DNA of 64,000 bases from an uncultured Planctomycetota bacterium (lineage in GTDB: Bacteria; Planctomycetota; Planctomycetia; Isosphaerales; Isosphaeraceae): NCBI GenBank assembly GCA_963823665.1, contig CAWGMQ010000008.1, positions 1,056,001-1,120,000 on the forward strand. Direction: 5' to 3'. Of this stretch, positions 19,842 to 40,321 are shown piece after piece. The translations under genes were made by a program, and so were the position numbers. Positions within the stretch are counted from its first letter, which is position 1; each line of letters begins with the position of its first letter. Under the pieces are notes generated by a model. It did no database searches. It had not been told where the DNA came from and saw nothing but the letters and a program-made list of their open reading frames with translations.

Positions 19842-21000
19842 ATGCGTAAGCCGAGGTTGATGACACCAGGACCGGCGATGGTTCCCGAGGACGTGCTGCT
19901 CGAGCTGGCTCGCCCGGTGATTCACCACCGGTCGAATGAGTTCAAGCAGGTTTTGACGGAGGTCGCCGCCGGTCTCAAGGAGGTGTTCCAAACGCAGAAC
20001 GATGTGCTGATCTTGACGGCGTCTGGAACCGGGGCGATGGAAGCGGCGGTGACGAACGCCGTGCCGCCGGACGGCAAAGCGCTGGTCCTCAATGCCGGCC
20101 ACTTCGCGGCGCGGTGGATCAACTTGTGCAAGGCGTTCCAACTGAAATACGTATCGCTTGAGACGGAGTGGGGGCAACCGGTCGAGCCTGGGCGAGTGGA
20201 AGAGGCTCTGCGGCAGAACCCCGACACTTCGTGTGTCTTCGGCACGCTCAGCGAGAACCTCCACCGGCACGGGCCATCCGATCGAAGCGATTGGGCGAGT
20301 CGTCGCGAAGACCCCGGCGCTCTTTGCGATCGACGGCATTTCGGGAGTCGGGGCGATGGAGTGCCGCACGGACAAGTGGGGAGTCGACCTGCTTTGCGTG
20401 GGGTCTCAGAAGGCGCTCATGATCCCGCCGGGCCTGGCGTTTGTGGCGGTGAGCCCCAAGGCCTGGGCCAGGATTGATTCCTTCGAATCGCCCAGTTACT
20501 ACTTCAACCTCAAGGCTGCCCGGAAGAAGATGAAGGAGTTTGACACACCATATACACCAGCGCATACATTGATTCAGGCGCTTTGCGTGGCGCTGCGACG
20601 GATCAAGGAGGAGGGAATCGAGAATGTCTGGGAGCGTCATCGCCGGATGAGTGAAGCGTGCCAGGCGGGAGTGGTGGCTCTCGGGCTCGAGCTTTTCAGC
20701 TCGCGACCGGCCGAAGGCCTCACTGCATTCTGCGTTCCGGAGGGGCTCAAAGACACGCAGATTCGCAACAAGCTCTCGGAGCGCTTCGGCATAACGACGG
20801 TCGGCGGGCAGGACAAGCTCAAGGGGAAGATCATCCGGATCGGGCACATGGGCTACACGGACGAGATCGACGTGATTGGCACGCTCGCCGCGCTCGAGAT
20901 GACGCTCGGGGAGCTTGGCCTGGAAGTGGAACCGGGCCGGGCGGTGACGGCAGCCCAGCAGGTGCTCATGGGGCAGAGGAGCTCAGTCGGGATCGGCTGA
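19842..21000 (+). CDS. Class V PLP aminotransferase (alanine-glyoxylate/serine-pyruvate type; frameshift near 20260)
   Basis: LMTPGP, HHRS..F, SGTGAMEAA, DGISG, GSQKALMIPPGL and RIGHMG. Confidence 0.9.
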
Positions 21001-26635: not shown

Positions 26636-28060
26636 ATGAAATCGCATTGTCATTCTAGTGCCGCAGGTGATCCGGCACGAGGCCAGAACGGCGCAGAGGC
26701 GGGCTCCGGCTCGATCGACTCGAGTGACGCCGGCCGAGCTGAAGCGTGGGTTCTTTCAACCGAAGCCGGCCGCGGCTTGCTGGAGGAGGTCGGCTTCGCG
26801 CGCTCGGTGAGCCCGGCCCAGCTCGCCAGGCTGAGGAAGCATGCCGCGCCTGAGGCCGTCGCGGCGGCCGTGCGACTGGCGCAGGCCCGGCAGAAGGCCG
26901 CGCTGAAGTTCGAGCGAGGGCCGCTCATGTGGGTTGACTCCAAGAGCGTGGAACAATCGACCGCGGAGCTGGTCGCGAAACACAAGGCGAACCGGTTTCG
27001 AGCTCATGTGATTGTTGACCTCTGCGCAGGGATCGGGGGTGATACGCTCGCACTGGCGGCCGCGGCGAATGTCGTCTCGGTCGATTTCGATCATGCGATG
27101 TGCCGGCGAATCCTTTACAACGCAGACGTGTATGGCGTCTCCGATCGCGTGGTGGCAACCCGCGCCCGGGCCGAGCAATTCGCGATCCCCTCCGGCGCCT
27201 GGGTCCACCTGGACCCCGACCGGAGGGCGTCGCATTTGCGCCGGGCTTCGCGGCTGGTGGATTACTGCCCGTGCCCGGAATTCTGGAGCTCGCTCGTCGC
27301 ACGAGTTCCCGCAGGCGCGATCAAGCTCAGCCCGGCCGCAGACTTCCGGCAGCATTTTGCGGGCTCAAACGTCGAAATCGAGCTGATCAGTCTTCACGGC
27401 GAATGCAAGGAGGCGACGGTCTGGTTCGGAGAGCTCGCCTCTTGCGGGCGACGGGCGACGCGGCTGCCGGAAAACGTCACCTGGACCGACCGCGACAACC
27501 CAACCCGGTACGTGGCGCCCGTCGCGTCGCCGGGCTGCCTGATCTATGACCCTGACCCCTCGCTGCTGCGAGCGGATCTGCTCGACAGTTTCGCCTGCGA
27601 GCACAACTTGAATCGTCTGGCAGATGGGGTTGATTACCTGACGGCTGATCACCTGGTGAAGAGCCCCTTTCTGAGCGCGTTTGAGGTTTGCGAGATTACG
27701 TCTCTGGACCTGAAGGTGCTGAAGCGCCTGGTCGCGAAGCATGAGATCGGCACGCTCGAGATCAAGGTGCGCGGGGCTCGCGTAACCCCGGAGAGGCTGC
27801 GGGAAAAGCTCAAGCTGCACGGCGGGCGAACGGCCACACTGATCGTGGTCGGCGGCAAAGGGGCGGCCAAGGCCATCCTCGCTCAAAGAGTTTCCACGGG
27901 GGGAGTGGCGACGTCATCGGCACGGGCCGAGCTGGTCACGGGCTCCGCGCCGAGCGAATCGGGCGACGCGCCGCCAGCGCCGTTTCCGTCGGCCCGCACG
28001 CCCCCGGCCGGGGCCGGCTCGAGCGGAGTTGATGGTCCATTGCCGCTCGCCTCCGGCTGA
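26636..28060 (+). CDS. Class I SAM-dependent methyltransferase with C-terminal THUMP-like domain
   Basis: EQST...A.HKA.RF, VDLCAGIGGD, HLDPDRR, IKLSPA, ECKEA, YDPDP and LEIKVRG. Confidence 0.85.
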   Translation: MKSHCHSSAAGDPARGQNGAEAGSGSIDSSDAGRAEAWVLSTEAGRGLLEEVGFARSVSPAQLARLRKHAAPEAVAAAVRLAQARQKAALKFERGPLMWVDSKSVEQSTAELVAKHKANRFRAHVIVDLCAGIGGDTLALAAAANVVSVDFDHAMCRRILYNADVYGVSDRVVATRARAEQFAIPSGAWVHLDPDRRASHLRRASRLVDYCPCPEFWSSLVARVPAGAIKLSPAADFRQHFAGSNVEIELISLHGECKEATVWFGELASCGRRATRLPENVTWTDRDNPTRYVAPVASPGCLIYDPDPSLLRADLLDSFACEHNLNRLADGVDYLTADHLVKSPFLSAFEVCEITSLDLKVLKRLVAKHEIGTLEIKVRGARVTPERLREKLKLHGGRTATLIVVGGKGAAKAILAQRVSTGGVATSSARAELVTGSAPSESGDAPPAPFPSARTPPAGAGSSGVDGPLPLASG

Positions 28061-31000
28061 GGGCTCCCGGCGGGGACCGGGCGCGACGCGAATCGTTTCT
28101 TGACGCCCTCGAGCCATTCGAGCTCGGGAAGTCCGTAGGGCCGGAATTTCTCGATCCGGTTCGCTTCTTCGCTGTAATAAAGAGCCCGGTTTTCGCCGAG
28201 CTTGCTGCCGGCGGGTGTGTCGATCAAGGTGCTCGAGTCGTTGGCACTCATCTGGAAAAGAATCCGATTCTCGAATTCCTTCATTCCCTGGCGGTCGAGC
28301 GTGCGGTTCATGTTATTCACACTGTCGCACCAGATGATGGTGTGAATACCCACGGGGGGACCGTCGCGGAGTGCGTCGGCAAAGAGCTTCGACGGCGGCA
28401 CCGGCTTGTCCTCGTCATAGCGCGCGTAGCCGAAATCGTCATCTGACTTCCTCAGGTCGCGGAACCGCTGGATGTCGTAGATCAAAATGTAAACTGGCGC
28501 TTGATCGTCGGAGGAAGCTTCCTGGCGGCGCTTGATCTCGGCGGCCAGACCGGTGTACGTCGCACCCAGGTTGCGCCAGGTGACATTCGTCACCGGATGC
28601 GGCAGGACTTCCTTCAGCCGGCCGAGCTGGCCGGAGAGTGCGGAATCAACAGGGCTGCCGTCGAGCAAGTAGAACCGGCACGCCTGGGGCCCGACCGGCG
28701 GATGCTGCGAGGCGATGCCGATGACGCCCATGATCATCATTGCGAGCGCGGCCTCGTCGTTCTGGCCGACGATCAAGACATTGCTGCCGCTCTGAGGCCG
28801 AAAGACGACCGATGTGGGATCCTTGATCGAGATCGCATCACCCAGCCAGGCGGAGTCGGCCTTGGGGGCTGCGGGCCATTCCGCTTTCGCGAGCAGCTCG
28901 TTCAACAGCGGATTTTTGCGAACTTCCGCGGGCAGATTGCCTTCGAAGACGATCGGAGGCGGCTTCTGGATATTGTGCTCGCGGCGCATTTCCTGAATTC
29001 GCTCGAGGTATTTCTCGCGGCGCTCGTCGGAGAGCCAGACCACCTGGAACAGGTTGTTTCCTTCCATCATTCCGTTGGCGTCGTTGTAGATCGCCTCGCC
29101 GGGGCGGGTGAGCAGGCGCGCGGCGGTGTTGTCCTCGCTCAAGATCAGGTGTGCGTCGGCTTCGCTGCATTGGAGGGCGATGCGCACGGCCATCTGGCCC
29201 AGGGTGGCCTTGGGAAGCGAATACTGGCCGCCCAAGGTCTGTGACCCGAGCACGACATGCATTCCGAACGCACGGCCCTGCCGCACCAAGCGGTCGAGCA
29301 GCAGAGTGACTTCCTGGGCAATCTTGTCGTCTTCTACGAAGAATTCCTGGAACTCGTCGATGACGAGCAAGACCCGCGGCATCGGTACCTCAGGGCGGGC
29401 CTCGCGATAGCCATTCAAATCCTGACATCCGAGTTGACGGTAGATCTCGCCACGCTCCTTGAGCTCGACGTCCAGCCGCTGGAGCACGCTAAGCCCGAAC
29501 TCGCGTTCGCTCTCGACCGCGATCACCCGCGCATGAGGCAACTCCATCGCCGCGTATACCTTGAATTCGACGCCTTTCTTGAAGTCGATCAGGTACAGCT
29601 CGAGTTGATCGGGGCTGTATCTGAGCGCTCCGTTGGTGATCGAGCGCGTGCAGCATCGTCGACTTGCCCGAGCCCGTCTTGCCGGCGGTGAGAACGTGCT
29701 GCGAGGTGCCTTTTCCCAGCTTGAGGTGCTGCAGCTTGGTGGCGCCGGCACGGCCCAGGGGAATGTCGACGCCCTTGCTGCTGTCGAAGGTCCAGAACTG
29801 GTCGGGCTTGGGGGCGATGAACTCGAATGGAACCTCGACCCGGTTGGCGTCGCGCGCGGCGTTGCCGACCTTGTGCAGGATCTCGGAGAATCGCGCTGGA
29901 TCGGGGGGGCCGTCGAGGGACAGAGGATAGCGGCCGAAGTTCGGCTCGCGCCACTGCAGGCGGCTTTCCTTCCAGATCATATTGACGCACGGGTTTTCCA
30001 GCTCCTTGAGCGGGAAGCCCGATGGCAGGCCGAGCTTCGTATCGAGCATCACGAGCGCGTACACGCCGCAACGGGCGCCACTGTTGACGATGCTGATCAG
30101 CCGCCGCAGCGCGGCGTCGTTGAAATTGGTCGGGAAGTTGGCGACGACCAGGATCCTGAACGGCTCGGCGACTTCGCCGGCCATGGTGTTGTATTCCTCG
30201 ATAGTCTCGAACTCGTTGCGGAGGTACTTCTGGATCACGTTCTCCATATGTTCGGTGAGATCGGTAAGACGCTGCTCGATGTGCTGGGCCTCGGTCCAGA
30301 TACGGTTCGTGACCAGGAGCTCGTGATAGTCGCCCAGGTGCATGAACGCGGCGAAGTTCTCGCCTAGCCCTACCGGATCGACGATGGTGAACCTCACCTT
30401 GCCGGGCGGAATCGAGGTCAGGTATCGCAGCATCAGCGATTGCAAGAGCGTGATCCCCTCGTCCTTGCCGGCATCGGCCGCCTTGATGAGCACCGAGCCT
30501 TGAATGGGGAAGGGCAAGAGGGCGGGAATCTGAAAATGGGTCGGGACCGATTTGAGTCGCGGATCGACGGGTACGCCGTTCGGGAAATGGTTCAAATCCA
30601 CGTCAAACATTCCGAAGCGCATTCCCGGCGGCACCTCGATCGGCGGCTTCCAGCCGTCAAGCTCCGGCGCGCCCCATTCCAGGAATCGGCGCCCGGCTTC
30701 TTCGCGAACTTCGTTCACGGTGTTGTCGACCCGAGCCATTCCCTCCGTCCAGTTCTTGATCAGGTTGGCCCACGCCTGGTCATAGTGGAGCTTGGTGGTC
30801 TCTTTTGTTTTTCGATAAGAGTCGTCGAGCTCGCGGCGATCTTTTTCGTATTTTTCCTTGAGTGACGCGAGCCGCGGAGGAAAGTGTTCCTCGGCCTTCT
30901 TGAGGCCTTCGTCGCGGCGTACGCGAATCTGCTCGAGCCGGGCGGGGTAGGTCTGGTCGGCCTCTTCCGTGTGCTTCTGGTGGCGGGTCTGAAACTCGCT

Positions 31001-32059
31001 CATCCTGCGCGCCAGCAGCTCCTCGGCCTCGCGCACCATGGACTCTCGCTTCTTCTCGAGCTCCTTGAGCTTTCCGTCGAATTCGTTCTTGATCCAGTCT
31101 TTACTCTGCTCGAGGAGCTGTTCGGCGCCGGCAAGCGCGCTCTTGAGCGGTACGCTGTGCTTGGCCACGGCGGGGCGAGCGATCGAGCTCAGGCCGAGGT
31201 AAGCCCCCACGGCCGAAGCGATCGCGACCACACCTCCCACGATCCCGGCGGTCGTCCAGCCGACGGGAGTCCCAAGTCCAAGACCCGCGGCGGCAGCGCC
31301 GCCCAAGAGTAGCCAGGGCCAGATGAAGTTGTCGATCTTGAGAAACCTGGGAAGTCTGAGCGCGACCAGACCAATCAGATGGTCTTCGATAGTCGCCCGC
31401 AGCGTTTGAAGCTTGACGAGGGGAGTCTGTTCAACGGGAGGCTCCGCTGGATCGGCCGCGGCTGCATCTGCGGGGGCATTCTCTCCGGGCGTCGCGGCCG
31501 GTTCGGTCGCCGCCGGAGTAAGGGCCTCGGGCGTCGCGGGAAGCGCTTCCGGACCCACATTGGCGAGCCTGCCGCAGCGCTTGAGCACGTATTCCGCGTC
31601 GACCTGTTTCTGGTGAAGAAAGCCGATCTCTTCATTCCAGGCGGCATCGGTGCCGCGTCGCCACTTGATGCCTTCATCGCGCTGGCCCTCGAACATAGCC
31701 AGCGCTTGCCAGCCCGTCTCTTCTTTCGACTTCTTGGCGCGGCGCCCGTCTTTCTTCAGTTGTTCGTCGATCTGTTTCTTGGTCTGTTCGTACTCGCCCT
31801 TGGTCGCCTGTGTGTCGCGCTGGAAGGTCTGCACAACCTGGTCGCGAGCCCTCGAATAATCGGCCTCCATGGCGGTGTTGTCGACTTTGTACTTGTCACC
31901 GAGGTGCTTGGCGGCGGAGCGATATTCGGCCTCTTCCCGCTCGATTCGCTTGCGGAACCCGAGCTCGGTTTCGGATTCACCCTTGGCGCGGGCCGCAATC
32001 AGGGCTTCGAGCTCAGAGAGCGCAACTGTCTCTTTTTGAACGAGTGGAGACTCAGGCAT
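27883..32059 (-). CDS. FtsK/SpoIIIE-family (EssC/EccC-like) ATPase with long coiled coil and TM hairpin (frameshift near 29640)
   Basis: Walker A GKTGSGKS (29660-29683), LYLIDFKKGVEF, Walker B VLLVIDEFQE, LVRQGRAFGMHVVLGSQT and RIALQ. Flanking RecA-like domains are degenerate. About 1390 aa when rejoined. Confidence 0.9.
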
Positions 32060-32158
32060 GATCCTTGATCCGTCTAGAAGGCTATCGCAGGCTTTTTTGC
32101 CGAAGAGATCGTCAGTTGTTTATCGATGACGCGGCCGCAGGCGAGGCCCGAGCGTCTG

Positions 32159-32371
32159 TCAGTCTTCCTTGCACTGAGCCCGGATCTTTCCGAGTGTCTC
32201 GGAGACCTTCTCCATACCGGTGATCGCGCCTTTGGTCAGTTGTTCGAGAGGCTGGAGGTGAATCCGCTCGAAATCGCGGGAAACGGGGTCGTCCCATGCT
32301 TCCTGGGTGATGTCCCACTGCTCCCTGAGGTGTTTCAGCGCGTGATGAAGCCGTCCCGAGTGAGCGCTCAT
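32159..32371 (-). CDS. Small WXG100-like helical hairpin protein (70 aa, W-D-D turn)
   Basis: LREQWDITQEAWDDPVSRDFER..LQPL. ATGA overlap with the upstream gene, inside the WXG100/FtsK operon. Confidence 0.7.
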   Translation of the reverse strand: MSAHSGRLHHALKHLREQWDITQEAWDDPVSRDFERIHLQPLEQLTKGAITGMEKVSETLGKIRAQCKED

Positions 32372-33051
32372 GAAGTCCTCCCGGAAACCAGGGGAGCGGC
32401 CTCGCCCGGCGCGATGGCCGTTCCGTCGCCTGTTGATTCGGTCTTGGTCTCGCCGCCCGCCGGAGCGGCGTCAGCCGCCGATGCCGTGGTCGCCTCACCC
32501 GAGCCCGTCGAGCTGCCGGCCGACGTCGGCCCCGAAGCCGCGGCTGTCTCGAACACCGGAGCTGTCGGTGCCCGCAGTGCCAGATAAGATTCGACGGCCA
32601 TGATCATCTTTTCCAGCCCGGCCATGCTCTTCTCGAAGCCCCCGGAGATATGATCTCCCAGGGGCTGAGAGTGGGAGTGGTATTCATCGATCGCGTGATG
32701 AAGTTGAGGAATGAGCCGCTTGACGAGCGCGACCATTTCTTCCGCCTTGCGCAGCCGCTTCTGGGCTTCGCGGACGGCCTCCTTCTGGTCGGAGTCGGAG
32801 ACGGCGTCGCTGCCCTGCTGCGAAAGTTGACGCTTGTGGAGATCGGCCCGCGCTTGCTGTAGAATCTCGGATCTTCTTTTGATTTGCGCCTGCCAGTAGC
32901 CGAGCTGGTCGCGCTCGAGCCAGTCGCGAGTCCGACGCAGCTCCATGTCCACACCGCCCAGGGAGCTGCGAGCCTCCTCGGCGAAGTTGGCCATCGCGAC
33001 TTTGAAATCCTTGAGCGCCTGAACGGACAGGATGTTGGCTGATCGGCTCAT
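32368..33051 (-). CDS. Helical protein (227 aa) with low-complexity A/S/T/G tail; putative Esx-associated substrate or partner
   Basis: The N-terminus MSRSANILSVQALKDFK parallels the WXG100 N-terminus. Coiled-coil composition, located between two WXG-like genes. Confidence 0.8.
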   Translation of the reverse strand: MSRSANILSVQALKDFKVAMANFAEEARSSLGGVDMELRRTRDWLERDQLGYWQAQIKRRSEILQQARADLHKRQLSQQGSDAVSDSDQKEAVREAQKRLRKAEEMVALVKRLIPQLHHAIDEYHSHSQPLGDHISGGFEKSMAGLEKMIMAVESYLALRAPTAPVFETAAASGPTSAGSSTGSGEATTASAADAAPAGGETKTESTGDGTAIAPGEAAPLVSGRTS

Positions 33052-33060
33052 GGCTCGTTC

Positions 33061-33333
33061 CTAACGCTGTTGCAGGTATTCTTCGATTCGTTCGGCCTTG
33101 CGAAGCAGGAATGGGATGTGCTGGTTGGTCGATTCCGTAAACCGTTTCACGACCTGGAGCGTCTGCTCGAACTGCTCGACGAATTTGTCGTGCTCCCGGT
33201 CGCGCCACGTCTGGCTAAGGCCTGCCAGTTGGCCATGCAGCGCGGTTAACTGGCCGATCATCTCGTTGTTGAACTGCTTGAGACGAGCCGCGAATCGACG
33301 CAGCTCTTCCGGGTTGACAATGGCTTGAGACAT
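33061..33333 (-). CDS. WXG100 family type VII secretion target (90 aa, W-R-D turn)
   Basis: MSQAIVNPEELRRFAARLKQF...LSQTWRDREHDKF...EEYLQQR has the size, helix-turn-helix layout and central Trp of WXG100 proteins. Confidence 0.88.
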   Translation of the reverse strand: MSQAIVNPEELRRFAARLKQFNNEMIGQLTALHGQLAGLSQTWRDREHDKFVEQFEQTLQVVKRFTESTNQHIPFLLRKAERIEEYLQQR

Positions 33334-33562: not shown

Positions 33563-34260
33563 CTATGTTCGCCCGCGCCCGCTGAGCACGTCCCAGATCA
33601 TCTGGATCACGACTTCGTAAGCATTGCTCCAGCTTCCCTCGCGGAAGAATTGCACAGGTGCGTCCGGGCTGCCGATGAACGGGCGGAGCACCCAGGCCAT
33701 CTGGATGCCGACGAACACGTAGATCAGCAGCCAGACAAACAGCATCCAGCGATGTTTGGGATCGCTCTTGATCAGAGGTTGGTAGCTCCGCCGCAGCATC
33801 CATTGGGCGCTGGCGCTGGCCACCGCGAATATCACGCCATTGAAGAGAATTGCAGGCTGGTAACGGCTGCCGCAAACATACCAGAACGCCGTATAAGGCG
33901 CGAGCGCCGAGAGGATGATCGTAAGCCCAGCCTGAGTGGCGAGCAAAGCACGAATCACCCTGGGAAAATCGGCTCGTAGCCCGAGCAGCGTGTTGACGAC
34001 AAAGAAACTAGGCAAGCTCAACAAGAACGTGATGAATAACAGGAACGGGACCTTGAGGGCGGAATACACAACCTGCCACACTCTGGGCCCGCCGAACCCG
34101 CTGTACGCTCCCATGACTCCGCCGTAGAACATCCCGAACGCGGCGATCGCCAGGGTAAGCGATGCAAGGGATCGCGCCGGCTCTTGATTCGATCGTTCGG
34201 CGCAGATTCGCCGCGCAGGATATCGCTCGTCATTCGAAGTAGAGCGGCGACGGAATTCAT
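33563..34260 (-). CDS. Multi-pass membrane protein, paralogue of the upstream gene (frameshift near 34190)
   Basis: LKVPFLLF.T.L...PS..V.N.L.G and FVGIQMAWVLRPFIGSP. The N-terminus MNSVAALLRMTSDILRG is in a shifted frame. Confidence 0.8.
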
Positions 34261-34282
34261 GACGCGACACTCGACCATTCAA

Positions 34283-35116
34283 TCACGAAAACAGGCTCCG
34301 GAACGTGCGCACGACGGCCTGGAAGAAGTTTGAGTCGCGCGGGCGAAGCCAGGTGAACGGAGAATTGGGGCTGCCCACGAACGGACGCAGCACCCAGCCC
34401 ATCTGGGCACCCACCAAGGCGAAGACAATGACCCAGAGCCGGAACACGGTCTTGACGTGCTGGCTCAAGACCCTGTTCTCAAGCGGATCGAGCGCGCCCG
34501 ACGGGTCGTCAAAGACAAGTGATTCCGGCTCCGTTTGCGCCGGTCGCGTCGCAGGAAGGAGCGGCTGAGAATCGACCGCGCTCAAACGGTGCAGAGTTTG
34601 CAGCAGGAACGCCATGCCGAGTGTCCCGGCCACGGTAAACACGACGACGTTGAACAGAAGCATGAACGGATAGCTGGACGTGCTCACCGAGAAGAAAGCG
34701 ACGATCGGTCCCAGCGACGACAGCACCGCCACCATCACGCCCAGTGACGCGACCAGCAATCGCGCGACCGTCACCAAGGTCAACCGCGAACCGACCAATG
34801 CGTTGAAGACATAAAGCGACGGGAAAGTCACCAGCAGCGTCAAATAGAACAAGAGTGGAACCTTGAGCATGCTCGCCAGCACCTGGATCGGATTAGCCCC
34901 CTGCGACCGGAAAACGGCGAACGTTCCCATGCACACTCCATAGATCATCGCCAGCACGATGATGATCAGCGAGAGGCGTCGCGAATTGACTTCGAGCCCG
35001 CCCCTGCGCAGCGATGACACCCGTGTCAGATCGCCTCGGAGTATCGAGTCCAGCTCCGCGAACCAACCGGCGATTCCGGCTCTCTTCACACCCGGTTTGT
35101 CGGTCGACATTCTCAT
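34283..35116 (-). CDS. Multi-pass membrane protein (possibly Yip1-like)
   Basis: LDSILRG, LKVPLLFYLTLLVTFPSLYVFNALVG and LVGAQMGWVLRPFVGSP...RDSNFF. Confidence 0.85.
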   Translation of the reverse strand: MRMSTDKPGVKRAGIAGWFAELDSILRGDLTRVSSLRRGGLEVNSRRLSLIIIVLAMIYGVCMGTFAVFRSQGANPIQVLASMLKVPLLFYLTLLVTFPSLYVFNALVGSRLTLVTVARLLVASLGVMVAVLSSLGPIVAFFSVSTSSYPFMLLFNVVVFTVAGTLGMAFLLQTLHRLSAVDSQPLLPATRPAQTEPESLVFDDPSGALDPLENRVLSQHVKTVFRLWVIVFALVGAQMGWVLRPFVGSPNSPFTWLRPRDSNFFQAVVRTFRSLFS

Positions 35117-35149
35117 CCCTCCCCGAATCCCGCGATGGACATCAGGCAC

Positions 35150-35318: not shown

Positions 35319-38300
35319 CTACTTGCCGGCAACAGCCGGGTGCGATTCCACCGCGACCTCCGCCGCGCTCATCACGGGCCGGCCTTCGACCTCGCTCAAG
35401 CCGTGGAGCTGAACGTAGCGTGCCGGCGGACCCGATAGCGGAACATATTTATGTGTTGTGTCGTTTTGCCATCGCCCCGAGGCGAGGATGCGGCTCCACG
35501 AGTGACCGTCGGTCGACGTCCGGATTTCAAAGTCTTTTACCCTGCCGTTGGGGCTGTCCTGACGAGGAATGTAGAGCAGCCCATCGACGTCGCGCAGGCT
35601 GCCCAGGTCGACGACCAGGTCGTGAGGGTAACCGGGGCTGGCGCCGACAAATTCGGTGTGCCAGATCGTCGAGAGGTCGCCGTCGCCGGCCAGTGCCGGC
35701 GCGTAGCCGGGTGAGTAGCTGTCGGCCGAATAGGTCTCCGCCTGGGAACCGCCCGCGGCCGATCGCGACGCCTCGCGAATCCAGTCCAGGATCGCGCGAA
35801 AAGCGGGCGAGTCGGTGTTTTCCCAGCGCACACCGCCGACGTGGGTCAATCCCGTCGGGCTGGCTGGATCAGCGCCACCGGCGCCGTGCGGGCTGCGCGG
35901 CTTGCGCAGGATCAAGCTGGCTTCGGGCTCGCCCAGGTTCACCACCTTGAGCGCGGAATTAAAATTGACCATCAGTTGTTCGATGCTGTTCTCGCCGCCG
36001 GGAGTGGTGGGAGCGATTCGCAGAATCGTGTGATTGCCGTGGCAGTTCGCGCAGGCCTGTTGATCCTCGCCCGTCCGGTAGAAAAGAGGGTTGATCTTCT
36101 TCCGAAAGGTCGAGAAGCTCAGCAGCCGCGATCTGCCTAGCTCGACGTCGGCCGCCAGCGTGGCTGAGTTCAGCCCATTCGCAGCGAGCAAGCCCAACGC
36201 GCGTGATCTGAGGGCCGGGTCACGGGCGAGTGCCATGACTCGTCTGGCCAGGGCCAATGTGCTCTCTTTGCCACCTGCGAGAAGCTGCTGGGAGTCGACG
36301 ACCGATAGCGCGAGCTCGCGCACCCGCGAGTCGGGGTCGACCAGGAGCCGCTTGACGTGCTCGAGGGCATCGGGCCGGCTCCAAAAACCGGTGCGATTGG
36401 CGCTTAATTCGAGCCCTTGCCGGCGCAGGGCAGGGGAGTCGTCGGCCAGCGCGGAGAGCAGCAGAGACGTTGCCGCGCGCGATGACCAGAGTCTGGGAAG
36501 GCTGCTCACGCCTGCAAGTGTGTGTTCGCGCACCGCGGGCGACGAATCCGATAACCCGCGTCGCAGGATCTCAAGCGCGGACGCCGGCGGATCGGCTTGA
36601 TCCAGAATGTCACGGCGCGCGAGCAACACGTCGATGGCTTCGACTCGCTGCGGCTGGTTCAATCGCGGCCAGGCGCGTTCGAGCAGCGAGACGACTTCGG
36701 CGTCGGCAAGCACGGCCCATTTGAGCACCGGCAGCAAGCTTGGGGCGGCCTCGGGATTCCCGATCAGCTTACGGATTGTTCCCAGGATTTCCGGGCTGGT
36801 AGAAAGGCGGTGGTTTCGTCCGATCGCCTGCAGAACGGCCTCTCGGCCCTCCGGCGAGCTCTCGAGCGCAGACCGCAGTGCTGCGATTTGCCGTGGGTCG
36901 GTCTCCGCCCCGCGAGGATCGAGGCTCGTCGAAACGAGCGCCCGGGCCGCCTCACGAACTTCGGGTTCAGGATCTGAAAGGTGTTCCAGCACGGCCAACT
37001 GAAGGCCTGGGGATTCCGACTGTTCCATCACGCGGAAGAACGCGGCGAGCTTGAACGCCTGGGCGCGGGATCGAGGCGGCAACGATATCTCGAAGAGCCG
37101 CGCAAATACGGATTCGAGCACCCGGGGATCGGGGTGAAAGAGGAAGCCGAATTCGCGGTCGTTGCCGACGTCGATCATCGCCTCGGGCTGCCTGGCGTAG
37201 AATCGTCCCTTGAAGAATGATCCGTCAAAGGCATCGAGCAAGGCGCAGGCCTGGCGCTCATTGCCGGCTTGCAGCGCCGCCACGACCGGAGCGAACAACA
37301 CGGTGCGCTCGAATTCGCGGCGGGCCTCGAGGATGCGCGGTCGCATGGCGGGCGGAAGCTGCTCGATGTTCTTCTGGAGGCTGACGCCGCCCCCGAGGTT
37401 CTCGTCGAGCATGATGTAGAGACCTTCACTCAGGTTCTTGCGCACGACCTCGGTCTCGGGCACGGCCATCCTGGCCAGGTAGGTCTCCACGATCCGGCGT
37501 GCCAGCGCCCGGTCTTTGGTTCGATAAAACCACTGACGAAGGGTTTTCGCCGCCTGGAGCCGCGTCCACAAGTCCGGGTCGTGTGCAAGCTCGATCAGTC
37601 GATTTGCCAGATCCCCTCGCTCATCCATTCCGTAGAATTGGTAGGCGAAAACTCGAGTCGCCCCGCGGCGAATACGGGGATCTGCATCATCGAGCGCTCG
37701 CTTGATCACGTCCACGCCGATGCCGTCGTTCCCGAGCCTGCGCAGGGCCCAGGCGGCCGCGCGCCACACGATCTTGGAGGGGTCTGCGAGCCGCGCCGCC
37801 AGCGGCTCGGCCGACTCGGCCTGCCCCAGCCGGCCCAGCGCGGCTGCGGCCGCCGCGCAGCTTGCGGCTCGCGGCATTCGAGCAGCTTGGCAATCGCCCG
37901 GGCGAATCGTGCACGATCTGCCTCGGGCACATCCCAGAGGTTCTCCAGATCGTCGAGGGTGTTCACCAGCGAGTCGGTTCGCGGTAGCTGCGCCGGGCCT
38001 TTCACTCGGTTTCCCCAGCCGCGCAGCGGAGCCTCTTGGCGGGGAAACGCCTCGGCGAGAGCCATCACGGCAAAGCGCGTTTCCCGCATGGGGGTGCGGA
38101 AGTTCTCATGGGTGGTGGTCTGGAACCAACCGCCGAAATCCTGCTGCTGGGCCAGCAGGTAGCGCCAGGCCTTCACGAGCGCCGGGTGGTCGCGCGGCAG
38201 ACCGGTTCGAAGCAGCGTCCAGGCGAGCTGCCCGGTGGTGTAGACGGCGCTCGGGCCTCGGTCGGAGTCGGTCTCGTGCCAGCCTCCGTCGTCATTCTGG

Positions 38301-39925
38301 ATCCTCATCAGTAGGCCGGTCTCACGCTTGATCTTGCTGGCGAAGGCCGCCTTGTCCAGCAGCGACCAGGCATAGAGCCGGTGAATCCGATCTTGCAGGG
38401 TCTCGATCCGGCGGTCGGCCGAGCGTTCACCCAGTATGGTGGAAATCGACGCGGCCGCCTGGGTGAAGTCTGCCCGGCCGGTCCGCGCGCCGAGCTCGCT
38501 CAAGACCCGCCAGTCGCGCCAGGCGATGCCGAACTTGCTGTCGAGGGGAATCACGCCGTTCTGCTCGTCGGCCGGCAGCTCCCGTCGGGTTGCCCACGCT
38601 CGCTCAAGGAAAGGACCGAATCGCTCGACGGTCTTCGTCTGCTTGCCGCTCACCTGACGCTCAAAATCGAGCAGGATGCCCCCTTGCTTGCCCTGGGCCT
38701 GGAGCGGGATGCCGATGAATCGCTGCCAGAACACACCGTCGTCGCCGTACAGTGGCGTGTTCGAGTTGTAGAGCCGGTCGATCACATACTGAAAGTTGGA
38801 TTTCGAGCGAATCTCGTAACCATTTCGATGGGCGGTCAGGTTGGCCTCGGTCGAAAAGCTTGAGGGGTGGCAGGCCGTGCAGCGAGTGGCCGTGTCGTGC
38901 ATATTGGCCGAGCGAACGTAGATATTCCCTTCACGCGGTACCTGGGCAAACCAGGCATCGCCGACATTCATGATGTAGTGCATCCCCGCCTCGACCGCCC
39001 TCGACGCCTCGTCGTACGGAGGCACCGGCAGCACGCGGGTGCGCAAGATGTAATCGGGATGGTTGGCGTTCACTTCGAGATAGTAGGTCCCGCGGGTGAA
39101 TACCCGGCTGATGTGCTTGGAGTAGCGCTCACGTTCGCGGTCATGCACGACCTCCATCGGATCCTTGCCGGCCAGGAACGGAGCTATTGTGTTGTTCGTT
39201 TTCGGGTCGACCGTGTAAACGCGAAGATTGGCCGAGACGTCGCGATCCAGCAGATCGAGCTGCAAATACACCAGGGTGGGTGTGTCTTGCGTGATCTCGA
39301 ATCGGAACCAGTCGAGGCCGGACTTTCCCTCGGCGCGGTTCTCGAGATAGTCGACATCGTCGGCGGAGCCGTAGACGTCGCGACCGAGCCGTATGTGATT
39401 CGCTTGCGGCCACGAGTCGTTGGGCTCGGCCTCGATGGCGGCGCGATCAGGCTCCGGGAGTTGCGTGTGATGCCATTCGACGCGGACGCCGAGCGGAGCG
39501 TCCTCCGCTGTCGCGACCCGGGCGAGGCTCACCTGGGCCTGGCCATTCACGCGAGGCCGATACGAGAAGTAGAGATCGGGATCGCCCGCGTGGAGTCCCT
39601 TGGCGATCCGGTCCCCGCCGGCAGCGGCCAGCTCGACCTCGACGCGATCGCCGAGGGCCCCGGGGGTGCGTTCCAGCGTAACCTGAAGGCCATACGTCTC
39701 GCCGGCTAGCACCGGGCCGAGTGATAGGCTCTCGCGCCCACCCGCCTTTAGCGAGATGGAACGCGGCAGAGTTCCTGCCTGCAAGGCGTGGGATTGGGGA
39801 GCTCCAGCGGTGCTGATTTCCTGCGCGGCCAGCCGCAGCCCGACCAGACCGAGAATCAAGGCGCACGAAACCGGCCAACGCGCACCTGGCATCCCTGGCA
39901 TCTCTGCTGTGCCTCCCAGTTTCAT
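35319..39925 (-). CDS. Large exported multidomain protein: two CxxCH motifs, prenyltransferase/squalene-cyclase-like repeats, HEAT repeats, F5/8 type C domain (frameshift near 37870)
   Basis: Signal-like N-terminus, EAEPNDS, CTACH, QNDDGGW/QQDFGGW, L.D....VR..A repeats, CANCH...SLILRKP...HVGG, and DGDLSTIWH...VVDLG...Y.PRQD...ARYV. Confidence 0.8.
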
Positions 39926-40321
39926 CGCCCTTAGCTCGCGACGATTCATTGTCGAGCCCGGGAGGATTTGTTGCAACCGTTGTATCGCGACTATCGAGCT
40001 TGAAGTGGGTGACCCGGCTCGCGTTTCCGCGACTTGACTTTTCGTCGCGGCGCGCAAAAATAGAGTGGACGCTGCGGCGGCCAAGCACGTACTCAAGTAC
40101 CAGGATGAAGTCTTAGCCCTGGCGCGTGAGTGTCGCTTTTAGCGACGAATCCCCTCGTGGGAGCGCGAACTTCCTTGTGTAGTCCGCCGCGGCGTCTTTT
40201 TTTTTGCGCGCGCTCGGGGAGAACGGCGGTCGCATCTCTTCACGTGTCCCTGACGGACCCGAACCGTTCTCGAAGTATGTGTCTGTCCCAAGAATTCCCG
40301 GCTCGATCGCGCGCGGCCGAT

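What the first reader, a model, noticed from the sequence alone, without database searches (positions are those of the whole stretch)
27883..33333. Minimal type VII/Esx-like secretion locus in a diderm planctomycete
Seen: a co-oriented cluster of WXG100 (90 aa), a 227-aa helical protein, a 70-aa WXG-like protein (gaps of 9 bp and an ATGA overlap) and a ~1390-aa TM-anchored FtsK-type ATPase. Established: WXG100 plus an FtsK/SpoIIIE ATPase is the core of T7SS in Actinobacteria (EccC) and Firmicutes (EssC). No EccB/D/E, MycP, EssA/B, EsaA or FHA domains are recognisable here. Inference: this is a distinct, stripped-down T7SS-like export or membrane-acting system, and how it deals with the outer membrane is unknown.
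Basis: partly seen in the sequence, partly recalled or inferred. Interest (0 to 1): 0.85.

Follow-up and report, generated by a model that had tools for sequence, protein, structure and literature searches.

The report
Planctomycete toxin-less type VII-like module
Four adjacent genes (three small helical proteins and a membrane-associated motor ATPase related to type VII secretion motors) are carried by most sampled genomes of this planctomycete class and likely push the helical proteins across the inner membrane; this kind of module was already noted in comparative-genomics papers, and I found no experimental test of it.

Summary
The four-gene cluster is real: a WXG100 protein, a 227-aa long-hairpin protein (H), a 70-aa WXG-like protein (S) and an EccC/EssC-like ATPase. 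Only the middle of three ATPase domains is intact (33 of 33). This matches the "mobile T7SS" that Zhang 2012 listed for planctomycetes and Bell 2024 described beside CoCoNuTs. Here it does not look mobile. The WXG100 gene is in 202 of 271 class genomes, is single-copy, and is under strong purifying selection. WXG100, H and the ATPase occur together in 52 of the 56 phylum genomes that hold any of them, even where the genes are unlinked. H carries no toxin in the copies I saw; some carry an Imm33-like domain. H and S are predicted to bind (0.81 versus control 0.17). No EccB, EccD, EssB or LXG was found. Likely role: inner-membrane export of helical bundles. No outer-membrane partner was found. 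This scan found the same module before on other DNA.

The parts
33061..33333 (-). WXG100/EsxA-like protein (W), 90 aa, W43-R-D45 motif
   Evidence: PF06013 36.2 bits, above cut-off. Best PDB sequence hit is H. pylori HP0062, E 4.8e-6. The only WXG100 found in the genome. dN/dS 0.010 and 0.049 against two relatives.
32368..33051 (-). H: 227-aa protein with a conserved ~160-aa long helical hairpin and a variable low-complexity tail; no toxin domain
   Evidence: AlphaFold2 pLDDT 89.9, helices 10-78 and 87-159. No Pfam match. Family alignments; tails.
32159..32371 (-). S: 70-aa WXG-like protein (W26-x-D28), overlapping H by ATGA and predicted to bind H
   Evidence: Weak profile match to W, E 9e-4, with HMM cross-hits. 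Complex score 0.81 against best control 0.17.
29642..32059 (-). ATPase N-terminal half (806 aa): coiled-coil-like region, Pro/Ala linker, uncharged hairpin 245-292, second coiled-coil-like region, degenerate domain D1, Walker A of D2
29641..29641 (-). One extra base that shifts the ATPase frame; likely assembly error
   Evidence: Absent in 17 of 17 related loci; unpaired insertion against L001
27883..29640 (-). ATPase C-terminal half (585 aa): rest of active domain D2 (Walker B DE, RQGR), degenerate D3, low-complexity tail overlapping the convergent methyltransferase gene
   Evidence: fold of the intact relative matches EccC best

Best explanation
The four genes form a conserved chromosomal module, and the ATPase likely acts as a stand-alone type VII-like pump that moves the WXG100 protein and a predicted H-S helical bundle across the inner membrane into the periplasm. 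Shown: gene order, co-retention across the phylum sample, purifying selection, one intact catalytic domain (D2) between two degenerate ones, and no toxin on H in the copies examined. Predicted: H folds as a long hairpin, and S packs on its two ends as a four-helix bundle, in the manner of EsxA/EsxB or LXG carrier plus partner (analogy recalled). Inferred from EccC/EssC: the ATPase hexamerises, its hydrophobic hairpin forms the pore, D2 supplies the power, and W is a co-secreted core substrate. The C-terminus of H is the cargo slot: a nuclease in mobile relatives, an Imm33-like domain or nothing in planctomycetes. No outer-membrane component was found, so the periplasm is the inferred destination and the role is likely upkeep or protection of the envelope rather than killing.
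For: Fold of the three-domain region: EccC cytoplasmic domain 4nh0 E 5e-33, EssC 3e-22, FtsK 2e-16. PDB sequence hits of the C half are EccC, EccC5 and YukB only. D2 matches EccC/EssC ATPase 1 best (hhalign E 8e-34). Walker A is in D2 in 33 of 33 and in D1 and D3 in 0 of 33. A hydrophobic segment lies at residues ~210-390 in 32 of 34 planctomycete ATPases; the other 2 have a hydrophobic ORF just upstream. Of 401 phylum genomes, W is in 56, the ATPase in 54, H in 54 and all three in 52; none of the 345 without W has the ATPase or H. In family f2 the genes are mostly unlinked, yet 13 of 21 have all three and 8 of 21 have none. Complex: score 0.81, best control 0.17; this mark was reached by 116 of 157 solved and 2 of 215 mismatched pairs (counts hold only roughly here); the runs agree in at least 96% of contacts; partner pLDDT at least 89. 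Plasmid relatives put a WHH nuclease and SMI1/KNR4 immunity gene in the same slot, the usual layout of an exported toxin.
Against: There are no expression, localisation or secretion data. Every described T7SS has further membrane or accessory parts, and those searched were not found. The hairpin is Gly/Ala-rich and only modestly hydrophobic. Three of five plasmid relatives (L053, L054, L057) show no clear membrane segment in the ATPase and no coiled-coil-plus-TM neighbour, and Bell 2024 argue that a different mechanism is likely for such forms. About 170 residues of charged, coiled-coil-like sequence separate hairpin and motor, unlike EccC. In the complex model W touches S only through residues 86-90, and W-H contact was not scored. 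The complex pass may come from likeness to solved four-helix bundles. Homology of H to the toxin carriers of mobile relatives is weak (E 0.0014 to 0.21). The tree does not place the family with EccC/EssC: it is drawn sister to FtsK/TcpA at 90/88, with AU p 0.13 for the alternative.
Confidence: 0.5

Rival explanations
1. A cytoplasmic membrane-remodelling or repair system. The H-S rods and W would assemble on the inner membrane in a PspA/ESCRT-III-like way, and the ATPase, tethered by a paddle-like hairpin on a long coiled-coil stalk, would assemble or recycle them. Nothing is exported.
For: H has a long hairpin and a free tail with no cargo in most copies. The pattern is near-core, single-copy and housekeeping-like. 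PspA/Vipp1/ESCRT-III chains appear among the fold hits (Z 9-10). The coiled coil-hairpin-coiled coil region hits the PADLOC LeoBC model (E 8e-9; LeoBC as dynamin-like is recalled). Mobile relatives can lack a membrane segment.
Against: The fold hits are generic: no Foldseek hit at E <= 0.001, and many unrelated coiled coils tie. There is no sequence match to PspA. W and the ATPase are clear relatives of secretion components.
Confidence: 0.2
2. A domesticated conflict or defence module. The ATPase would hold and release H inside the cell, or export it as a protective or decoy protein, in response to phage or incoming toxins.
For: Plasmid relatives sit beside CARF, vWA, PP2C and kinase genes, TerD or helicases, as Bell 2024 describe. 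36 of 51 longer H homologues scanned carry an Imm33-like immunity domain, 34 of them over the cut-off.
Against: There is no effector or immunity gene in this locus, and no recurrent fifth gene in 42 loci. Single copy, low dN/dS and presence in 81 of 86 family genomes are unlike arms-race genes. No PADLOC model matches H or S, and W only weakly (E 0.004).
Confidence: 0.15
3. A full two-membrane secretion system that uses an unlinked outer-membrane channel and effectors encoded elsewhere.
For: The genes stay co-retained when scattered, so unlinked partners are possible. The genome holds a second H-S-ATPase set without W.
Against: Only 2 H-family genes and 1 W were found in the genome, neither H with cargo. 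No LXG was found. No conserved neighbour was found. YukD-like genes do not track the module: 12 of 56 carriers against 35 of 345 others.
Confidence: 0.1
4. A DNA translocase or conjugative coupling protein with bystander small genes.
For: The D2 tree draws the family next to FtsK/TcpA at 90/88; FtsK and TcpA are among the fold hits.
Against: The genome has a separate 798-aa FtsK that groups with E. coli FtsK at 99/95. The protein has three tandem domains and matches EccC best. Co-occurrence with WXG100 is tight, and no recurrent relaxase or T4SS neighbour was seen.
Confidence: 0.05

Closest known systems
[quoted passage not shown] 2012, PMC3482391, Table 1 note 6; passages read)
   Same: Names planctomycetes explicitly. 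Solo WXG gene and a three-domain ATPase with only the middle domain intact (confirmed 33 of 33).
   Different: Here the module is chromosomal, single-copy, found in 202 of 271 class genomes, and sometimes dispersed.
EssC-like ATPase/WXG100 extension of Type III-A CoCoNuTs (Bell et al. 2024, PMC11090510; passages read; cites Anantharaman 2012, which I could not read)
   Same: Three-domain ATPase with only D2 active, a long N-terminal coiled coil, two WXG100-type proteins (one without WxG) and a coiled-coil protein.
   Different: There the ATPase lacks TM helices, the coiled-coil protein is fused to a D-ExK nuclease, a DNA-mimic-like gene follows, and the context is a defence locus. Here there is a hydrophobic hairpin, no nuclease, no immunity gene and no defence context.
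Helicobacter HP0062-type locus (PDB 3fx7/2gts; PMC3397514 passages; plasmid locus L057)
   Same: WRD-type WXG100 in a diderm, clustered with an FtsK/SpoIIIE-domain gene; best PDB sequence hit; same ATPase clade.
   Different: The Helicobacter plasmid form has a WHH nuclease cargo, an SMI1/KNR4 gene and a shorter ATPase without a clear TM hairpin.
T7SSa (EccC) and T7SSb-j (EssC/TsxC) (PMC10765036 section 5 read; PMC11217815 abstract and passages)
   Same: WXG100 plus a membrane-bound multi-domain FtsK-type ATPase; best fold match.
   Different: Three domains instead of four (D0-D3), no FHA, long coiled coils around the hairpin, no EccB, EccD or EssB found, a separate clade, and a diderm LPS-type host. 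The T7SSc-j survey covers Bacillota and Actinomycetota only.

Membership tests
Solo-WXG / three-domain YueA-like ATPase module (Zhang 2012; Bell 2024) | Solo WXG100 gene next to the ATPase | tested here: met
   PF06013 above cut-off; same operon in 17 of 17 loci
Solo-WXG / three-domain YueA-like ATPase module (Zhang 2012; Bell 2024) | Three FtsK/HerA domains, only the middle one active | tested here: met
   Walker A in D2 33 of 33, in D1 and D3 0 of 33; model with three domains; hhalign
Solo-WXG / three-domain YueA-like ATPase module (Zhang 2012; Bell 2024) | Long N-terminal coiled coil and a second WXG-like protein | tested here: met
   Segments 1-165 and 293-460 are 40% E/K/R/Q (no coiled-coil predictor was run); S matches W weakly, E 9e-4
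CoCoNuT/TerY-P-associated form | Coiled coil fused to a nuclease, TM-less ATPase, defence neighbourhood | tested here: not met
   H has no domain in its tail; a hydrophobic hairpin is present; neighbours are a methyltransferase, a Dus-like gene and membrane proteins
T7SS (all subtypes) | WXG100 substrate plus membrane-bound EccC/EssC-family ATPase | tested here: inconclusive
   WXG100 is met. The ATPase is far below the EccC/EssC equivalog cut-offs (74 against 509 bits) but its best fold match is EccC. Tree position unresolved. The membrane anchor is only predicted.
T7SSa (ESX) | EccB and EccD (with EccE, MycP) | tested here: not met
   EccB and EccD not found in the 92%-complete genome while the control rang; EccE and MycP not searched
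T7SSb | EssB, EsaB, EsaA, EssA and an FHA-bearing EssC | tested here: not met
   EssB/YukC not found; no FHA in the ATPase; YukD-like genes lie in Ubl-E2-E1-JAB operons and do not track the module; EsaA and EssA not searched
T7SS (all subtypes) | ATPase-dependent export of folded WXG100 dimers | not testable with these tools
   Needs fractionation or secretome data; no RNA run was listed
FtsK/SpoIIIE DNA translocase or TcpA-type coupling protein | Single motor domain within the FtsK or TcpA clade | tested here: not met
   Three domains; own clade 100/99; a separate true FtsK in the genome
PspA/Vipp1/ESCRT-III | ESCRT-III fold and sequence signature in H | tested here: inconclusive
   Only generic hairpin matches, Z about 9-10 with rmsd 4-10; no Pfam match

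The most novel reading that the evidence does not exclude
Planctomycetia have turned a mobile toxin-exporting T7SS relative into a cargo-less, near-core envelope machine: one ATPase on a long coiled-coil stalk forms its own pore and feeds WXG100 and H-S rods into, or onto, the inner membrane to shape or repair the unusual planctomycete envelope. This would be a one-protein type VII translocon working in an LPS-type diderm, and a non-antagonistic T7SS.
Probability: 0.3. Interest if true: 0.8.

Novelty: new variant of a known kind. Interest (0 to 1): 0.5.

Why it matters
A 2023 review (PMC10765036) states that WXG100 plus FtsK pairs in Gram-negative bacteria have not been confirmed as secretion systems. 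This module makes two open questions testable in harmless cultured bacteria: whether an EccC-like ATPase alone can export WXG100 dimers, and what type VII relatives do in cells with an outer membrane. Named relatives that carry the ATPase include Aquisphaera giovannonii, Paludisphaera borealis and Singulisphaera sp.. The near-core, toxin-less pattern suggests a housekeeping role. The basic gene set is already in print, so the finding is not a new kind of system.

Tried and rejected
- Frameshift as a real pseudogene: judged unlikely. Both halves have dN/dS of about 0.08-0.15 and no stops, and related assemblies show scattered indels at other sites. It is not excluded, because no same-strain read spans the site.
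- YukD/EsaB-like genes as an unlinked fifth component: rejected.
- A conserved fifth or outer-membrane gene nearby: none recurred in 42 loci beyond generic kinases, transporters and shadow ORFs (ORFs of at least 100 aa only).
- Fold search of H: no specific match; this says nothing against any family.
- H as a stretched WXG100 or as a homologue of the mobile toxin carriers: weak only.
- Our D1 as the EccC DUF/D0 domain: not resolved.
- Phage copies: none confirmed among 4 candidate stretches in viral contigs.
- Metagenome scan with the H alignment could not run.
- No RNA holder listed.
- Longer H fusions by word search: 8 hits, none with a toxin Pfam (weak evidence).
- ESM Atlas returned only unnamed, mostly Planctomycetota clusters and the Imm33-like cluster.
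- P. limnophila essentiality data: the supplements held list only one FtsK-type gene and no WXG term, and PMC6952346 says it has one FtsK homologue. These data therefore do not bear on the module, and this model strain may lack it (not tested).
- The promoter/terminator scan gave nothing clearly above chance.
- The first tree did not finish. The final tree left out two long-branch third-domain rows and 26 of 39 family rows; the S. meliloti FtsK failed the length filter in both.
- Literature searches for an experimental test in planctomycetes found none. Sutcliffe 2011, Unnikrishnan 2017 and Anantharaman 2012 were seen only as citations and may say more.
Full report
OBSERVATION. The - strand carries W (33333-33061, 90 aa), H (33051-32368, 227 aa), S (32371-32159, 70 aa) and an ATPase (32059-27883). 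The gaps are 9 bp, an ATGA overlap and 99 bp. W passes PF06013 (36.2 bits against 27.3), and its best solved relative is H. pylori HP0062. The ATPase is split in this assembly by one extra base at about 29641, into halves of 806 and 585 aa. All 17 related loci, the genome's own paralogue and four loci from three further family genomes (which may overlap with the 17) lack that base. One of the 17 has its own shift about seven codons later. Both halves are under purifying selection. An assembly error is likely but not proven. The nearest named relatives are Isosphaerales/Isosphaeraceae. The genome is 16.5 Mb in 12 contigs and 92% complete.

ATPASE. In an intact relative, AlphaFold2 models three tandem domains (pLDDT 87.9). 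The best Foldseek match is the EccC cytoplasmic domain (E 5e-33), then EssC (3e-22) and FtsK (2e-16). Walker A is present in D2 in 33 of 33 sequences and in D1 and D3 in 0 of 33; Walker B DE is invariant in D2. D2 matches EccC/EssC ATPase 1 best, D3 matches ATPase 2 or 3, and D1 is ambiguous. The N-terminus reads: charged helical segment, Pro/Ala linker, uncharged Gly/Ala-rich hairpin (245-292), and about 170 more charged residues. A hydrophobic segment is present there in 32 of 34 planctomycete ATPases. On a 32-row D2 tree the 13 family rows, which include plasmid copies from Rhodococcus, Caballeronia, Deinococcus and Helicobacter, form one clade (100/99), apart from EccC, EssC and FtsK/TcpA. 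The clade is drawn next to FtsK/TcpA at only 90/88, and grouping with EccC/EssC ATPase 1 is not rejected (AU p 0.13). The genome's true FtsK is another gene.

SMALL PROTEINS. H(1-162) is modelled as one long hairpin with no specific fold match. S is weakly related to W. In a three-chain prediction S packs on both ends of H: score 0.81, best control 0.17, a mark reached by 116 of 157 solved and 2 of 215 mismatched pairs (only roughly applicable here), contacts at least 96% concordant, partner pLDDT at least 89. W touches S only at its C-terminus, and the pass may reflect likeness to solved bundles. Of 45 H proteins listed from fetched loci, one has a folded tail (Imm33-like); the rest have short, low-complexity or frameshifted tails. 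A profile search found 2910 relatives. Of the best 150, 102 are 260 aa or shorter. I scanned 51 of the longest: 36 carry an Imm33-like domain and none a nuclease family. The 2760 weaker hits were not seen and may include toxin fusions.

DISTRIBUTION. In 401 phylum genomes W is in 56, the ATPase in 54, H in 54 and all three in 52; none of the 345 without W has either of the others. The exceptions are two genomes with a short ATPase type beside W, and two fragmented assemblies with W and H near a contig end. W is in 202 of 271 class genomes and 81 of 86 family genomes, almost always once; for these two samples only W was searched. In family f2 the genes are mostly scattered (the ATPase is not within about 6 kb of H in 9 of 9 H loci fetched for this; one further f2 genome keeps the cluster), yet 13 of 21 have all three and 8 of 21 none. 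Kin are not independent, so this is strong but not a statistical proof. W is more conserved than the neighbouring Dus-like gene (dN/dS 0.010 and 0.049 against 0.14 and 0.13). This genome has a second H-S-ATPase set without W. No fifth gene recurs in 42 loci. EccB, EccD, EssB and LXG were not found. YukD-like genes belong to ubiquitin-like operons and do not track the module.

MOBILE RELATIVES. Plasmid loci show the same slots with cargo. In Helicobacter: WXG, helical protein with a WHH nuclease, SMI1/KNR4, a 77-aa protein, ATPase. In Caballeronia: vWA, WXG100, 436-aa, 113-aa and 76-aa proteins, ATPase, CARF, vWA, PP2C, kinase. Their ATPases lack a clear TM hairpin; two of five have an adjacent coiled-coil-plus-TM gene. 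Sequence homology of H to their carrier regions is weak, so the equivalence rests on position and shape.

PRIOR ART. Zhang et al. 2012 (PMC3482391, passages) note solo WXG domains with a three-domain YueA-like ATPase, only the middle domain active, in planctomycetes and other diderms, and call them mobile T7SS versions. Bell et al. 2024 (PMC11090510, passages) describe the TM-less, nuclease-bearing form. PMC10765036 (section 5) says such Gram-negative pairs are functionally unconfirmed. PMC3397514 (passages) notes the WRD motif of HP0062 and its FtsK/SpoIIIE neighbour. PMC11217815 (abstract and passages) covers Gram-positive subtypes only. My searches found no experiment and no description of the toxin-less, near-core planctomycete form; subscription papers, including three cited ones, were not readable. 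Eight earlier notes of this scan on other genomes reach the same reading; I saw them after forming mine, and they are not independent support.

MECHANISM. Most likely (0.5): a one-ATPase type VII-like pump that exports W and an H-S bundle into the periplasm, with the H tail as an optional cargo slot. The gene set, co-retention, selection and domain pattern are shown. The H-S bundle is predicted. Hexamer, pore, export and destination are inferred. Rivals: cytoplasmic membrane remodelling (0.2), domesticated defence or immunity module (0.15), two-membrane secretion with unlinked partners (0.1), DNA translocase (0.05).

VERDICT. Real, conserved and untested. It is a member of a module already noted in print, and it fails the tests for T7SSa and T7SSb. 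What this work adds is the variant's behaviour: hydrophobic hairpin, no toxin, near-core single-copy distribution, co-retention after dispersal, and an Imm33-like cargo in a subset. New variant of a known kind; interest 0.5.

Noticed in passing
L022:9455-14386 (G000:C5): A second H-like, S-like and intact 1332-aa ATPase set without a WXG100 gene, about 57% identical in the C half, upstream of a large alpha-2-macroglobulin-like gene (label by inspection). Two other family genomes also show a second ATPase-like match.
   Followed up: partly
L118:7327-11388 and L119:7232-10025 (G000:C4): Two bacterial ubiquitin-like operons. L118 is YukD-like Ubl, E2, E1/ThiF and JAB by Pfam; L119 looks similar by inspection. 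YukD-like genes occur in 47 of 401 phylum genomes.
   Followed up: partly
L077:8088-9080 and proteins P0259 etc.: A large subfamily of H proteins carries a C-terminal Imm33-like domain (Atlas cluster of 433 members, commonest Planctomycetota). A few others carry a different short unnamed C-terminal domain (P0301, P0345, P0363, P0387, P0392).
   Followed up: partly
window 19842-21000 and 35319-40096: Other apparent frameshifts: an aminotransferase-like gene split at about 20160-20470, and overlapping ORFs at 37706-37877, consistent with indel errors in the assembly.
   Followed up: no
window 33563-35149 (-): Two tandem paralogous multi-pass membrane proteins (239 and 288 aa, about 32% identical, no Pfam match) directly upstream and co-oriented; present in only 1 of 17 related loci, so not part of the module.
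   Followed up: partly
L058-L060: In several f2 genomes the lone ATPase gene lies between a DksA/TraR-like gene and a DegT-like aminotransferase gene (labels by inspection; the first had no Pfam hit).
   Followed up: no
L053:7718-11686 (NZ_CP126457.1): A Rhodococcus plasmid member of the ATPase clade with a TerD-like N-terminus (by inspection), beside TerD-family genes.
   Followed up: no
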